A stretch of DNA of 64,000 nt from Candidatus Aenigmatarchaeota archaeon. Lineage in GTDB: Archaea > Aenigmatarchaeota > Aenigmatarchaeia > GW2011-AR5. The stretch covers positions 28,695-92,694 of the forward strand of contig JACQID010000007.1 in NCBI GenBank assembly GCA_016198685.1, in the 5' to 3' direction. Position numbers and translations under genes: made by a program. The notes under the pieces were generated by a model. It was given only the letters and a program-made list of their open reading frames with translations, searched no databases and was not told the origin of the DNA. Shown piece after piece: positions 10,196 through 45,339 of this stretch (its first letter is position 1; each line of letters starts with the position of its first letter).

Positions 10196-10282
10196 GCTCC
10201 TGTCGTCTAGCCCGGCCATTGATAGCCGAAAGGATAGTGGCTTCTCAAGCCATTGACACGGGTTCAAATCCCGTCAGGAGCA
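10196..10282 (+). tRNA. tRNA-Glu(CUC) with a 12-nt D-loop intron (10219-10230)
   Basis: Acceptor GCTCCTG/CAGGAGC, anticodon arm GTGGC-TTCTCAA-GCCAT, T-arm ACGGG-TTCAAAT-CCCGT. The D-loop insert TTGATAGCCGAA forms a BHB-like motif with central helix CGGC/GCCG. Confidence 0.9.
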
Positions 10283-12022: not shown

Positions 12023-12646
12023 ATGCGAACAGTCTGGGACAGCATAGCCGAAGGATGGAATTCTTTCAGGTCGTTTCCGATAGAGGAAGCCAAAGCCTTT
12101 CTTCAGGATTGGAGAGGCGTTGTGCTTGACATAGGATGCGGGTCGGGAAGGAATTTTCTGAAAGGCATGACGTTCGTAGGACTGGACATCTCTTATAACA
12201 TGCTTCTTCATGCGAAGAAGAATGCGGAAAAGAGAGGGGTAAGGGCATACTTGATACGTGCAGATGCTGCGGCATTGCCGTTAAAGCCGGCATTTGAAAG
12301 GATACTGCTGATTGCAGTATTGCATGCGCTAAGGGAGAGAAGGGCATGCGTTTCCGAGGTTCGCAGGCTTTTGGGCGCCCGGGGCAAAGCACTTGTTACG
12401 GTGTGGAACAAGGACCAGCCGCGCTTCAAGAAAGCGCCCAAGGAAAACGAAATACCATGGGAAAGCGATGGCAAGGAATACATGAGATATACATACCTTT
12501 TCACCAAACAAGAACTTGCCTCGTTCCTTCAGAAAAGCGGTTTCGAGGCCGAGATTGCTGAAAGCTCCAAAAAGGCTTTTAATGCCTTCTCCAAGAATAT
12601 AGTGGCAGTGTTGAAGCGGGGGTCCCCTAGTGGCCAATGGGACTAG
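12023..12646 (+). CDS. Class I SAM-dependent methyltransferase (Trm9/ALKBH8-like); overlaps tRNA-Leu by 31 nt
   Basis: VLDIGCGSGRN, GLDIS, ADAAALP, IAVLH...RR, LVTVW and RYTYLF, resembling Trm9-type tRNA methyltransferases. Confidence 0.8.
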   Translation: MRTVWDSIAEGWNSFRSFPIEEAKAFLQDWRGVVLDIGCGSGRNFLKGMTFVGLDISYNMLLHAKKNAEKRGVRAYLIRADAAALPLKPAFERILLIAVLHALRERRACVSEVRRLLGARGKALVTVWNKDQPRFKKAPKENEIPWESDGKEYMRYTYLFTKQELASFLQKSGFEAEIAESSKKAFNAFSKNIVAVLKRGSPSGQWD

Positions 12647-12751
12647 GCTTAGGTGACTGTCCGGCCAATGGGACTAGGCTCAGATGACCGGAACTGGTCG
12701 AAGACACCTAGTGGCTTAGTGCCTTCGCAGGTTCAAATCCTGCCCCCCGCA
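12616..12751 (+). tRNA. tRNA-Leu gene with two alternative anticodon arms (UAG at 12650-12652; CAG at 12681-12683)
   Basis: Acceptor GCGGGGG/CCCCCGC, Leu-type variable arm GGC-TTAGT-GCC, T-arm GCAGG-TTCAAAT-CCTGC, 3' anticodon strand ACCTAG at 12706. Removing 12654-12705 gives Leu(UAG). Removing 12638-12668 and 12685-12705 gives Leu(CAG). Confidence 0.88.
12632..12690 (+). repeat. Tandem 28-nt direct repeat inside tRNA-Leu (12632-12659 and 12663-12690)
   Basis: GGCCAATGGGACTAGGCT-TAGG-TGAC-TG versus GGCCAATGGGACTAGGCT-CAGA-TGAC-CG: 18 nt identical, 3 mismatches over 28 nt, offset 31 nt. Confidence 0.95.
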
Positions 12752-44139: not shown

Positions 44140-45339
44140 TCATTTCATATGGACTGCAATGACGTCAAGTTCTTTGCATACGCAAGGAACGCCGAGTATT
44201 CCAGAAACTGAAGGATTAGTCCTTCCTTCGTCACCGGATATAAGTTCTTTGATGTAAAGGCCGCTCTGGCCTTTGACAGTGATTTCGAATGATTTGCTGT
44301 TTATGTATTTCGTTTTTATTCCTTTGACAGATCTTCTTCTCATCAAGTCCGAACGCCTATGAAGGACTCTTCGCGGCGTCTGCTGGTTGATTTCCTTGAG
44401 AGCGGATAGCTTAGCGAGATCCTTTCTTTTTATCAAACCGGAAGTTTTGACGAGAGCGCGATAAGTCTTGTCAAGCTTCGCATCCTTCAGTTTTCTCACT
44501 TCTTCAATATTCGAAATTCTTGCATTCCTGATTTTCACGCCTGCACCGACTTTTTTTGCAAGTGCAGGAGCATTAATATCACGTTTTTTCGGGTCAAGGA
44601 TCTCAAGCACAAACGGCCTCCATGCAAGGCATCGGGCATCTATATCCTCGCGGCCGGCTCCATGAAACTTGTGGCCGCTTCCATTCGTTACTTTCATGAA
44701 AGGCTTTGCGGTTATCTGTTCAACCGACGTCTTGTACTTGCCGGAGGGCCATCGTGTCTGCGGTATGCCTCTTTTGAGCTTCTGGTATTCCCCATAAATG
44801 AAAAGGGGGTTTATCTCCATGCTGACAGTGTTAGTGTTCAAGTCAATAAGAAACACGACATCCGGCCGTTTTGCCGAGAATTTCTTGCCTATGTGTTTTT
44901 CTATCAGCTTTCCTGCTTCGCGGTTTATCTCTGCCTTCAAAGGTTCGCAGTGGTCTATGCCAACACGCTCCCATAGATTGTCTTCGGCAGTCGCAAGCTC
45001 GGAAGACGGGCGAGTGCCCACAAGGAATGTGGCGAATTCCGCTTTCTTCGCTTGCAATGCGGCCTTCTTGACATAAGTGGCGAGTTCATTGAAAATTCCA
45101 AAGCATACTGAGCATTGCGCGGCCTCTGAAACAGAGGGCTTGGTACGGAGGGTGAAACCCGGAACGCTCGATGCATCTATATTTGCGTTGCCTGCGTCTG
45201 CTGCCATGGCCACAACCATTCTTATGGCGCGGCCCCTTTCAACATTCGTAAATCCGGAAAGAAGCTGGGAGAACTGCCTCCCAAGGCAGTGGTCGCAAAC
45301 GGGCTGCGCCAGTATTTTCAGCGCTTTTTCGATTATCAT
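44140..45339 (-). CDS. pus10: tRNA pseudouridine(54/55) synthase Pus10
   Basis: Zn motif CDHCLGR, GEYQKL.RGIPQTRW, FHGAGREDID, RPFVLE and GLYIKELISGD.GRT.P. Confidence 0.95.
   Translation of the reverse strand: MIIEKALKILAQPVCDHCLGRQFSQLLSGFTNVERGRAIRMVVAMAADAGNANIDASSVPGFTLRTKPSVSEAAQCSVCFGIFNELATYVKKAALQAKKAEFATFLVGTRPSSELATAEDNLWERVGIDHCEPLKAEINREAGKLIEKHIGKKFSAKRPDVVFLIDLNTNTVSMEINPLFIYGEYQKLKRGIPQTRWPSGKYKTSVEQITAKPFMKVTNGSGHKFHGAGREDIDARCLAWRPFVLEILDPKKRDINAPALAKKVGAGVKIRNARISNIEEVRKLKDAKLDKTYRALVKTSGLIKRKDLAKLSALKEINQQTPRRVLHRRSDLMRRRSVKGIKTKYINSKSFEITVKGQSGLYIKELISGDEGRTNPSVSGILGVPCVCKELDVIAVHMK

What the first reader, a model, noticed from the sequence alone, without database searches (positions are those of the whole stretch)
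12616..12751. One tRNA-Leu gene with two anticodons: candidate alternative splicing to Leu(UAG) or Leu(CAG)
Seen: the D-loop 3' side and anticodon arm are tandemly duplicated (offset 31 nt), with TAG in copy 1 and CAG in copy 2, sharing one 5' end and one 3' half. Route A removes 12654-12705 (52 nt, 37/38) to give Leu(UAG). Route B removes 12638-12668 (31 nt, 21/22) and 12685-12705 (21 nt, 37/38) to give Leu(CAG). The route B D-loop intron has a coherent motif: the palindromic GGCC copies pair as a 4-bp central helix, both bulges are AA|T, the non-repeated linker TGTCC pairs with GGG, and the D-stem closes a bulge-helix-loop. Both copies can pair with the same TGGTC element. Caveats: the 37/38 central helix against GAAG is imperfect (3/4 pairs for UAG, 2/4 for CAG), and A37 in the CAG copy is atypical for Leu(NAG). 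Established: shared halves give alternative anticodons in the split tRNAs of Nanoarchaeum and Caldivirga. Inference: this is a cis, intron-based version of that economy.
Basis: partly seen in the sequence, partly recalled or inferred. Interest (0 to 1): 0.85.

Follow-up and report, generated by a model that had tools for sequence, protein, structure and literature searches.

The report
One tRNA gene, two leucine anticodons
A single 136-base leucine-tRNA gene of a tiny DPANN archaeon carries two alternative anticodon arms (UAG and CAG) in front of one shared 3' half, and comparison with about 370 related genomes indicates that the tRNA-splicing enzyme cuts its RNA in two ways to make two tRNAs, although no RNA has yet been examined.

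Summary
Observation confirmed. Window 12616-12751 is a class II tRNA-Leu gene (Rfam 41.3 bits) with a 26-nt tandem repeat (24/26, offset 31), TAG in copy 1 and CAG in copy 2. Both proposed splice routes give 84-nt cloverleaves.

I found Leu GAG, UAA and CAA genes in the genome but no other UAG or CAG source. This long architecture occurs in three congeners and seven genomes of other genera. Shorter mini-exon versions and two other cassette orders occur in about 88 of 371 genomes of the phylum.

Evidence that the CAG arm is used:
- Splice-helix covariation: 3.88 of 4 pairs, 3.07 when permuted.
- A terminal-intron base fitting both U34 and C34: 42/71 dual genes, 1/14 single-UAG genes.
- No decayed cassette in 18/18 long introns.
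- Pre-set test: stand-alone Leu(CAG) in 1/88 dual genomes versus 64/283 others.

The precursor's predicted fold is the CAG route. A constitutive tRNA-Glu D-loop intron in this window has the same geometry.

The scan met this phenomenon before in other genomes; this is its long, D-loop variant. I found no published description. Main rival: a gene-fusion relic making only UAG (about 0.2).

The parts
12616..12751 (+). Whole tRNA-Leu gene (precursor body, 136 nt)
   Evidence: Rfam RF00005 41.3 bits, model 1-71. Acceptor GCGGGGG/CCCCCGC with A73, long variable arm and T arm read directly.
12616..12637 (+). Shared 5' exon: acceptor 5' strand, U8, D-stem 5' strand, 5' part of the D loop. Ends with GGCC (12632-35, central helix strand A) and bulge bases AA (12636-37).
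   Evidence: Sequence; route B splice geometry.
12638..12653 (+). Copy 1, an exon only in route A: rest of the D loop, D-stem 3' strand GGG, A26, anticodon-stem 5' strand CTAGG, loop CTTAGG with anticodon TAG at 12650-12652 and G37 at 12653
12654..12662 (+). Linker. TGAC belongs to the repeat; the unique TGTCC (12658-62) pairs with GGAC (12640-43) to close the hairpin that sequesters copy 1.
   Evidence: MFE structure. This region diverges fastest among relatives.
12663..12668 (+). GGCC (central helix strand B) plus bulge bases AA: the 3' end of the 31-nt D-loop intron of route B (12638-12668)
   Evidence: GGCC:GGCC pairing probability 0.99. Relatives show GGUC:GGCU, and GGUC:GACC with two G.U pairs turned into Watson-Crick pairs.
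12669..12684 (+). Copy 2, an exon only in route B: same D/anticodon-arm segment, loop CTCAGA with anticodon CAG at 12681-12683 and A37 at 12684
   Evidence: About as conserved across genera as the exons.
12685..12705 (+). Terminal 21-nt intron at 37/38, shared 3' splice site: hairpin GACC (12686-89)/GGTC (12696-99), helix strand GAAG (12700-03), bulge AC|A
   Evidence: Relatives have UAAG, UGAG or GGAG here.
12706..12751 (+). Shared 3' exon: A38, anticodon-stem 3' strand CCTAG, variable arm TGGCTTAGTGCC, T arm, acceptor 3' strand, A73

Best explanation
This is one tRNA-Leu gene that most likely yields two isoacceptors by mutually exclusive splicing with the archaeal tRNA-splicing endonuclease (EndA) and the RtcB ligase. 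The precursor can fold in two ways. In fold B, copy 1 with its UAG loop is locked into a hairpin. That hairpin is closed by GGCC:GGCC with AA|U bulges on both sides, the same geometry as the constitutive D-loop intron of tRNA-Glu(CUC) in this window. Copy 2 then pairs with the shared CCUAG strand. Cutting out 12638-12668 and 12685-12705 gives Leu(CAG). In fold A, copy 1 pairs with the shared CCUAG strand, and one canonical-position 52-nt intron (12654-12705), which contains copy 2, is removed to give Leu(UAG). Shown here: the anatomy; both products fold as class II tRNAs; EndA and RtcB are encoded; I found no other UAG or CAG gene in this genome; and relatives show conservation, covariation and a complementary distribution. 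Inferred: both cleavage patterns actually occur in cells, and the product ratio. The long architecture probably arose when a tandem Leu(UAG)/Leu(CAG) gene pair fused, or when part of one gene was inserted into the other's intron.
For: (1) Need. G000 has exactly four Leu-type genes: GAG (C1:183513, T-loop intron), UAA (C1:246178), CAA (C3:85816, three introns) and this one. No other UAG loop in a tRNA context was found. CUA (5.1 per 1000 codons) requires a UAG tRNA, and CUG is used at 15.3 per 1000. Other four-codon boxes keep their C34 tRNAs.
(2) Conservation. The same long architecture is in G001-G003 (same genus) and in G013, G263, G291, G299, G301, G307 and G353. Copy 2 is 0.68-0.77 identical to G000 across genera, like exon 1 (0.69-0.86). 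The unique linker is 0.39-0.64 and the terminal intron 0.38-0.62. In G291 both copies carry U27 opposite A43.
(3) System-wide. About 72 UAG->CAG dual genes, 10 CAG->UAG and 6 CAG->UAA occur in 371 genomes. In UAA hosts the CAG cassette starts with A31 opposite U39; in UAG hosts it starts with G31 opposite C39.
(4) Splice-helix covariation in front of the CAG cassette. 3.88 of 4 pairs in 59 short-type genes, against a permuted mean of 3.07 and a maximum of 3.41 in 2000 permutations. Pair 25:i-3 is C:G in 38, G:C in 15 and G.U in 6, with no mismatch. D-loop helix in long-type genes: GGCC:GGCC, GGUC:GGCU, GGUC:GACC.
(5) Terminal-intron base i-5. It is G, which pairs with both U34 and C34, in 42/71 dual genes. 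In single-cassette UAG genes it is G in 1/14 (Fisher p = 3e-4).
(6) No decayed cassettes. In Leu(UAG) genes found by exon BLAST alone, 18/18 with an intervening sequence of 20 nt or more hold the cassette.
(7) Pre-set test (note). Stand-alone Leu(CAG) is found in 1/88 dual genomes and 64/283 others (p = 1e-7). By genus, the overlap is 1 where about 10 would be expected (p = 4e-5). There are within-family contrasts in f1, f7, f13, f20 and f38.
(8) Folding. The unconstrained MFE (-62.3 kcal/mol) is fold B. With bulges enforced, A is -56.2 and B is -56.3. Copy 2 pairs with the shared strand with probability 0.66-0.998 in 8 of 11 long-type genes.
(9) Machinery and precedent. One EndA (97 bits) and one RtcB (568 bits) are encoded. 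tRNA-Glu(CUC) at 10196-10282 needs removal of a D-loop intron (10219-10230) with the same layout.
Against: No RNA data: no mature tRNA, splice junction or excised intron was observed. In G000 the terminal central helix is poor for the CAG route (CUCA:GAAG, 2/4 pairs) and only 3/4 for the UAG route. The D-loop motif is relaxed rather than canonical: 4 unpaired bases face the 3' bulge, and the MFE pairs part of the bulges. Thermodynamics predict almost no fold A (P about 0.001), yet the UAG tRNA must be made, so either the energy model or the simple two-fold picture is incomplete. The complementary distribution would also arise if dual genes are made by destroying a stand-alone CAG gene through fusion. 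In family f9, nine single-UAG genomes show no CAG gene by my patterns, so Leu(CAG) may be dispensable or hidden. G164 has both a dual gene and a stand-alone CAG gene. G011's cassette has C33. Related genomes are not independent, so the p-values overstate. An earlier audit of a sister finding priced the two-product reading at 27/100.
Confidence: 0.66

Rival explanations
1. Fusion relic: a deletion or recombination between tandem Leu(UAG) and Leu(CAG) genes left part of the CAG gene inside the 37/38 intron of Leu(UAG). Only Leu(UAG) is made, by route A, and it also reads CUG by wobble. Copy 2 is inert intron content.
For: Tandem separate Leu(UAG)/Leu(CAG) genes with near-identical 5' halves exist in G017, G022 and G300, and G300 is in the same genus as the long-type duals G299 and G301. 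Such a fusion would by itself remove the stand-alone CAG gene and so produce the complementary distribution. ARAGORN and Rfam read the locus simply as Leu(UAG) with one intron. Nine f9 genomes seem to do without Leu(CAG). The CAG-route terminal helix in G000 has only 2/4 pairs.
Against: A relic should decay, but CAG, U33 and R37 persist in about 88 genomes while adjacent intron sequence is unalignable, and no decayed long intron was found (18/18). The splice helix in front of the cassette covaries with exon 1. Two G.U pairs of the D-loop helix were converted to Watson-Crick pairs in G291 and G307. Base i-5 is shifted to G in dual genes. N31 follows the host's position 39. An inert copy 2 that captures the shared 3' strand with P = 0.99 would be a misfolding trap and should be selected against.
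Confidence: 0.2
2. Only Leu(CAG) is made from this gene. Copy 1 is always removed as a D-loop intron, and the UAG tRNA comes from a gene in the unassembled 6% of the genome.
For: The predicted ensemble is almost entirely fold B. The genome is 93.7% complete.
Against: None of about 72 UAG->CAG dual genomes shows a second Leu(UAG) gene in the BLAST or pattern searches. CTTAGG is kept in 67 of 71 parsed genes, and the other four have TTTAGG. The terminal helix fits the UAG cassette with 4/4 pairs in 56 of 71 genes. CUA codons are in normal use.
Confidence: 0.06
3. Assembly artefact: a collapsed or chimeric join of two Leu genes.
For: Short tandem repeats can be created by mis-assembly of metagenome bins.
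Against: The same 31-nt-offset architecture is found in three other genomes of the genus with their own substitutions, and in seven genomes of other genera.
Confidence: 0.01

Closest known systems
Tri-split tRNA-Gly of Caldivirga maquilingensis (Fujishima et al. 2009, as summarised by Kanai 2015, PMC4390854)
   Same: One constant 3' half and one constant 5' piece are combined with alternative anticodon-loop pieces to give synonymous isoacceptors. Joining goes through bulge-helix-bulge motifs cut by the tRNA-splicing endonuclease.
   Different: There the pieces are separate genes and transcripts joined in trans. Here everything lies in cis within one 136-nt gene, and the choice would be made by alternative folding of one precursor. 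That case is class I tRNA-Gly; this is class II tRNA-Leu, for which the 2015 review states that no split tRNA or translocatable intron was known.
Split tRNA-Glu(CUC)/(UUC) of Nanoarchaeum equitans and tRNA-Ala(CGC)/(UGC) of C. maquilingensis, which share a half-transcript (PMC4390854)
   Same: The economy of a shared half serving a U34/C34 pair of isoacceptors.
   Different: Trans-splicing of half genes, with the anticodon residing in a whole alternative half rather than in an internal alternative exon.
Multiple-intron tRNA genes with non-canonical BHB introns (Thermoproteales, ARMAN/DPANN; PMC4390854, PMC5829648)
   Same: Introns in the D loop and at 37/38, relaxed BHB motifs, and a broad-specificity endonuclease. 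Many other tRNAs of this genome are of this kind.
   Different: Those introns are constitutive and give one product per gene. Here the two intron sets are mutually exclusive, and what one route removes as intron the other keeps as exon.
Short 'mini-exon' dual-cassette Leu genes of the same phylum
   Same: UAG and CAG cassettes before one shared 3' half, the same terminal 37/38 intron, and no stand-alone Leu(CAG) in the genome.
   Different: In those genes only 7 nt (N31 to 37) are alternative, and the first intron sits at 30/31 with a helix to nt 25-28. Here 16 nt (D loop to 37) are alternative, and the first intron sits in the D loop with a GGCC:GGCC helix.
Mirror mitochondrial tRNAs (bioRxiv 10.1101/2025.11.12.688142)
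   Same: One locus yields two tRNAs.
   Different: The two tRNAs come from opposite strands of a mitochondrial locus, with no splicing and different amino acids.

Membership tests
Archaeal class II tRNA-Leu | Cloverleaf matching the tRNA covariance model above its gathering score | tested here: met
   RF00005 41.3 bits against a cut-off of 29, model 1-71. Both spliced forms fold as cloverleaves.
Archaeal class II tRNA-Leu | Long variable arm, A73 discriminator, NAG or NAA anticodon | tested here: met
   Variable arm TGGCTTAGTGCC, A73, anticodons TAG and CAG read directly. The 3' half is 90% identical to the genome's Leu(UAA).
Canonical hBHBh' intron at 37/38 | Two 3-nt bulges separated by a 4-bp helix, flanked by helices on both sides | tested here: inconclusive
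   Route A: bulges GG|U and AC|A, central helix CUUA:GAAG with 3/4 pairs, h' GACU:GGUC 4 bp, h = anticodon stem. Route B, second intron: central helix 2/4, h' GACC:GGUC 4/4. Congeners have UAAG (4/4 for UAG) or GGAG.
Relaxed (non-canonical position) BHB intron | 4-bp central helix with a 3-nt bulge carrying each cleavage site, and at least one flanking helix | tested here: met
   GGCC:GGCC 4/4; AA|U on both strands; h' GGAC:GUCC. The h side is the D stem across 4 unpaired bases. The constitutive D-loop intron of tRNA-Glu(CUC) at 10219-10230 has the same layout.
Relaxed (non-canonical position) BHB intron | Actual cleavage by the splicing endonuclease | not testable with these tools
   The genes for EndA and RtcB are present. 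No RNA or enzyme data.
Split / tri-split tRNA | Pieces encoded as separate genes and transcripts with complementary leaders | tested here: not met
   All pieces are contiguous within 136 nt on one strand.
Split / tri-split tRNA | Constant pieces combined with alternative anticodon pieces to give synonymous isoacceptors | tested here: inconclusive
   The anatomy fits and comparative evidence supports it, but the products were not observed.
Dual-cassette tRNA-Leu genes of this phylum (unpublished class) | Two anticodon cassettes before one shared 3' half, with a splice helix before the second cassette | tested here: met
Dual-cassette tRNA-Leu genes of this phylum (unpublished class) | No stand-alone gene for the embedded anticodon in the same genome | tested here: met
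   G000: none found. Class-wide: 1/88.

The most novel reading that the evidence does not exclude
Cis alternative splicing exists for tRNA. In a whole archaeal phylum (about a quarter of 371 genomes, three cassette orders, short and long architectures), one leucine tRNA gene produces two isoacceptors by mutually exclusive bulge-helix-bulge splicing. The precursor is a bistable RNA whose folding balance sets the UAG:CAG ratio. Here the prediction leans to CAG, matching CUG being three times as frequent as CUA. The design arose by fusion of tandem isoacceptor genes during genome reduction.
Probability: 0.55. Interest if true: 0.9.

Novelty: new variant of a known kind. Interest (0 to 1): 0.8.

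Why it matters
tRNA genes are taken to be one gene, one tRNA, and alternative splicing is regarded as belonging to spliceosomal mRNA introns. If both products are made, this would be alternative splicing by the protein-only archaeal tRNA-splicing pathway. It would be a cis counterpart of split and tri-split tRNAs and a new route of genome economy in ultra-small archaea. In practice, standard tRNA finders miss or mis-annotate these genes, so DPANN genomes appear to lack Leu(CAG). That distorts decoding and completeness inferences. The system is directly testable, because the two routes leave three diagnostic junctions. It also offers a natural model for how RNA folding partitions a precursor between two splicing outcomes, and for how split, intron-containing and fused tRNA genes interconvert.

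Tried and rejected
(1) Default ARAGORN and Rfam at gathering threshold do not call the locus. Sensitive Rfam and ARAGORN in intron mode were needed.
(2) ARAGORN's inventory is unreliable in this genome. Its 'Arg(tcg)' at C3:85816 is Leu(CAA) with three introns, and its 'Leu(caa)' at C2:36939 is not class II. Leu(GAG) is missed because of a T-loop intron. I replaced the inventory with acceptor- and T-arm-anchored scans.
(3) I suspected CUCAGA might be a generic intron motif, because it appears before UAA loops in family f20. Rejected: those are genuine CAG->UAA dual genes whose N31 matches the host's position 39.
(4) Apparent counter-examples to complementarity (G214, G215, G220, G246, G224, G094:C30, G098) are chance YTCAGR strings inside Leu(CAA) or Leu(UAA) introns with no splice helix in front. 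Only G164 stands.
(5) Intron-encoded guide RNA for the tRNA's own anticodon, as in other introns of this genome. Rejected: copy 2 is a direct repeat, not antisense, and has no box motifs.
(6) Assembly artefact, rejected.
(7) The first loose dual pattern also hit its reversed control at a similar rate, so I counted only hits in Leu context and re-ran a tighter pattern with zero control hits.
(8) The sigma-70 promoter and terminator scan is uninformative for an archaeon.
(9) The listing was truncated at G172. I completed it.
Full report
WHAT IS THERE. The window comes from a 935-kb, 8-contig, 93.7%-complete archaeal genome; it carries an archaeal SRP RNA, and earlier notes of this scan place it in the Aenigmatarchaeota (DPANN). 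At 12616-12751 on the + strand lies a class II tRNA. It has acceptor GCGGGGG/CCCCCGC, discriminator A73, variable arm TGGCTTAGTGCC and T arm GCAGG-TTCAAAT-CCTGC. Rfam's tRNA model matches it end to end at 41.3 bits when sensitive filters are used. Default ARAGORN and Rfam miss it. Inside it, 12632-12657 and 12663-12688 are a direct repeat, 24 of 26 identical at a spacing of 31 nt. Each copy holds the 3' part of the D loop, the D-stem 3' strand, position 26, the anticodon-stem 5' strand CTAGG and an anticodon loop. The only differences are T34/G37 in copy 1 (UAG) and C34/A37 in copy 2 (CAG). There is one 5' end and one 3' half.

THE TWO ROUTES. Removing 12654-12705 gives an 84-nt Leu(UAG). Removing 12638-12668 and 12685-12705 gives an 84-nt Leu(CAG). 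Both fold into class II cloverleaves.

DOES THE GENOME NEED IT? Standard finders fail badly in this intron-rich genome, so I made my own inventory anchored on T arms and acceptor complementarity. There are exactly four Leu-type genes:
- Leu(GAG) at C1:183513, with an intron in the T loop.
- Leu(UAA) at C1:246178.
- Leu(CAA) at C3:85816, with three introns. ARAGORN miscalled it as Arg.
- This gene.
No other UAG or CAG loop sits in a tRNA context. CUA is used at 5.1 and CUG at 15.3 per 1000 codons. Only a UAG anticodon can read CUA. Other four-codon boxes keep their C34 isoacceptors. One EndA and one RtcB are encoded.

RELATIVES: THE SAME LONG ARCHITECTURE. BLAST of the gene against 60 relatives found it full length in three congeners (88-96% identity) and in G013 of another genus. 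Pattern scans of the phylum added G263, G291, G299, G301, G307 and G353, in three further families. This excludes an assembly artefact. Across genera, copy 2 is about as conserved as the exons: 0.68-0.77 identity to G000, against 0.69-0.86 for exon 1. The unique linker (0.39-0.64) and the terminal intron (0.38-0.62) drift faster. In G291 both copies carry U27 opposite an A43 in the shared strand. The D-loop central helix is GGCC:GGCC in G000, G001 and G003, and GGUC:GGCU in G013. In G291 and G307 it is GGUC:GACC: copy 2 is no longer a copy but the Watson-Crick complement, with two G.U pairs improved. It has 3 of 4 pairs in G002, G299, G301 and G353.

RELATIVES: A PHYLUM-WIDE SYSTEM. Most relatives have a shorter version. 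Exon 1 ends at G30, followed by 7-nt cassettes G31-CUUAGG and G31-YUCAGR. Each cassette is preceded by GGCC or GGCG plus two bases, and a terminal 37/38 intron leads to A38-CCUNG. Counting all forms, I found about 72 UAG->CAG genes. There are also 10 in the order CAG->UAG (families f21, f23, f24) and 6 CAG->UAA genes in f20. In those six the CAG cassette lives in the Leu(UAA) gene and starts with A31 opposite that host's U39, rather than G31 opposite C39.

TESTS OF WHETHER THE CAG CASSETTE IS A USED EXON.
(a) The four bases before the cassette's two bulge bases pair with exon-1 positions 25-28. This gives 3.88 of 4 pairs in 59 short-type genes, 0.8-2.1 when the window is slid, and a permuted mean of 3.07 with a maximum of 3.41 in 2000 permutations. 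Pair 25:i-3 switches between C:G (38), G:C (15) and G.U (6), with no mismatch.
(b) The strand of the terminal intron that pairs with loop positions 32-35 has G at i-5 in 42 of 71 dual genes. That G can pair with both U34 and C34. In single-cassette Leu(UAG) genes that have a 37/38 intron, it is G in only 1 of 14 (p = 3e-4).
(c) The cassette loops show the same spectrum as stand-alone Leu(CAG) genes of the phylum (CUCAGA, UUCAGG and others).
(d) In a set of Leu(UAG) genes found by exon similarity alone, all 18 with 20 nt or more between the UAG loop and the 3' strand contain the cassette, and the four shorter ones do not. I found no decayed intermediate. G011 has C33, together with a matching UAAG-to-UAGG change.

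PRE-SET GENOME COMPARISON. Before running it, I wrote down the test and its predictions. A pattern with zero control hits lists every CAG loop in a Leu context in 371 genomes. After inspecting the doubtful cases, stand-alone Leu(CAG) occurs in 1 of 88 genomes with a dual gene (G164) and in 64 of 283 others (Fisher p = 1e-7). By genus, 47 genera have dual genes and 36 have stand-alone genes. They overlap in one genus, and there in different genomes; about ten would be expected (p = 4e-5). Within-family contrasts exist in f1 (G017, G022, G030), f7 (G048), f13 (G093), f20 and f38. G300 has adjacent separate Leu(CAG) and Leu(UAG) genes, while its congeners G299 and G301 have the long dual gene.

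CAVEATS ON THAT COMPARISON. Relatives are not independent. Detection is pattern-limited. Nine f9 genomes with a single-cassette UAG gene show no CAG at all. A fusion origin would produce the same complementarity without any function. For that reason I give tests (a)-(d) more weight.

FOLDING OF THIS PRECURSOR. The unconstrained minimum-free-energy structure (-62.3 kcal/mol) has the route B topology. GGCC:GGCC and GGAC:GUCC enclose copy 1, the D-stem 5' strand pairs with copy 2's GGG, and copy 2's stem pairs with the shared CCUAG. With the 3-nt bulges enforced, routes A and B are equal (-56.2 and -56.3). In the ensemble, copy 2 holds the shared strand with P = 0.99 in G000 and 0.66-0.998 in 8 of 11 long-type genes. 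An inert copy 2 would therefore be a strong misfolding trap. On the other hand, the UAG tRNA must also be made, and the energy model gives fold A almost no population. This is unexplained; kinetics or proteins may matter. The terminal helix is weak in G000: GAAG gives 3/4 pairs for UAG and 2/4 for CAG. G003 has UAAG, and G001 and G002 have GGAG.

AN INTERNAL PRECEDENT. The tRNA-Glu(CUC) of this same window (10196-10282) is interrupted by a 12-nt D-loop intron (10219-10230). Its layout is D-stem 5' strand, four unpaired bases, CGGC, CA|U ... GCCG, AA|A, D-stem 3' strand. This is the geometry of route B's first intron, shifted by one base. The spliced product is 75 nt, the normal tRNA length, and the precursor's predicted fold shows this layout. 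A second Glu-type gene (C1:181898) has an intron at the same site. The organism's enzyme must therefore already process this kind of motif.

WHAT IT IS CLOSEST TO. Kanai's review (PMC4390854) describes split tRNAs that share a half, and the tri-split tRNA-Gly with 'alternative anticodon-loop transcripts'. These follow the same logic, but in trans. It also states that no split tRNA or translocatable intron was known in class II tRNAs. Four literature searches and two further papers gave no description of a cis, alternatively spliced tRNA gene. This scan has noted the short form several times in other genomes, and one later audit priced the two-product claim at 27/100 for lack of RNA and an undecided genome comparison. 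The present locus is the long, D-loop variant. The comparison I set beforehand came out clearly in the predicted direction.

VERDICT. I put 0.66 on both tRNAs being made from this locus, about 0.2 on a UAG-only fusion relic, and about 0.06 on CAG-only. Surroundings are ordinary: a SAM-dependent methyltransferase upstream, whose frame runs 31 nt into the tRNA, and a NUDIX hydrolase downstream.

Noticed in passing
window 10196-10282: tRNA-Glu(CUC) is 87 nt with a 12-nt D-loop intron (10219-10230; CGGC-CA|...GCCG-AA|A). ARAGORN calls only a truncated 68-nt gene at 10215-10282, and Rfam scores it below threshold.
   Followed up: partly
G000 C3:85816-85970 (outside the window): Leu(CAA) gene with three introns (30/31, 37/38 and in the variable loop). 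ARAGORN miscalled it as Arg(tcg) with an 81-nt intron.
   Followed up: partly
G000 C1:183513-183628 (outside the window): Leu(GAG) gene with an intron inside the T loop. ARAGORN and Rfam both miss it.
   Followed up: partly
L198-L200, L203-L205 (G109, G110, G111, G113, G125, G127; family f20): Dual-cassette genes of a different pairing: A31-CUCAGA (CAG) followed by A31-CUUAAGA (UAA) before a shared UCCUG strand. Here the CAG cassette is housed in the Leu(UAA) gene.
   Followed up: partly
L215-L218, L224, L225 (G214, G164, G131, G143, G190, G215): Dual genes in the reverse order, CAG cassette first and then UAG, each with its own GCUG or GCCG splice helix. G164 also keeps a stand-alone Leu(CAG), and its cassette helix is weakened (GCUA).
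   Followed up: partly
L211 (G094 C3, around 44889-44926, minus strand): A Leu(CAG)-type 3' half (loop, stem, variable arm, T arm with intron, acceptor, CCA) with no 5' half upstream. This is a candidate split class II tRNA, which the 2015 review says was unknown.
   Followed up: no
L035 / L214 (G013 C2:99313-99441): In G013 the CAG copy is followed by its own ACCTAGTG, so the 3' strand is duplicated too (ACCTAGTG-TAAGAA-ACCTAGTG). It looks like a larger remnant of a second gene inside the intron, which bears on how the long architecture arose.
   Followed up: no
window 12023-12646: The upstream SAM-dependent methyltransferase ORF (207 aa) runs 31 nt into the tRNA gene on the same strand. Either the two genes truly overlap or the real stop/C-terminus is different.
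   Followed up: no
all parsed dual genes and stand-alone Leu(CAG) genes: Loop positions 32 and 37 are associated: C32 goes with A37 and U32 with G37 (47 CUCAGA, 16 UUCAGG, only 6 mixed). The reason is unknown, and shared ancestry was not controlled.
   Followed up: no
family f9 (G064, G066, G067, G070, G075, G076, G077, G078, G081): Single-cassette Leu(UAG) genes with no detectable Leu(CAG) of any kind by my patterns. Either CAG is dispensable there or it is hidden in a form I did not search for.
   Followed up: no
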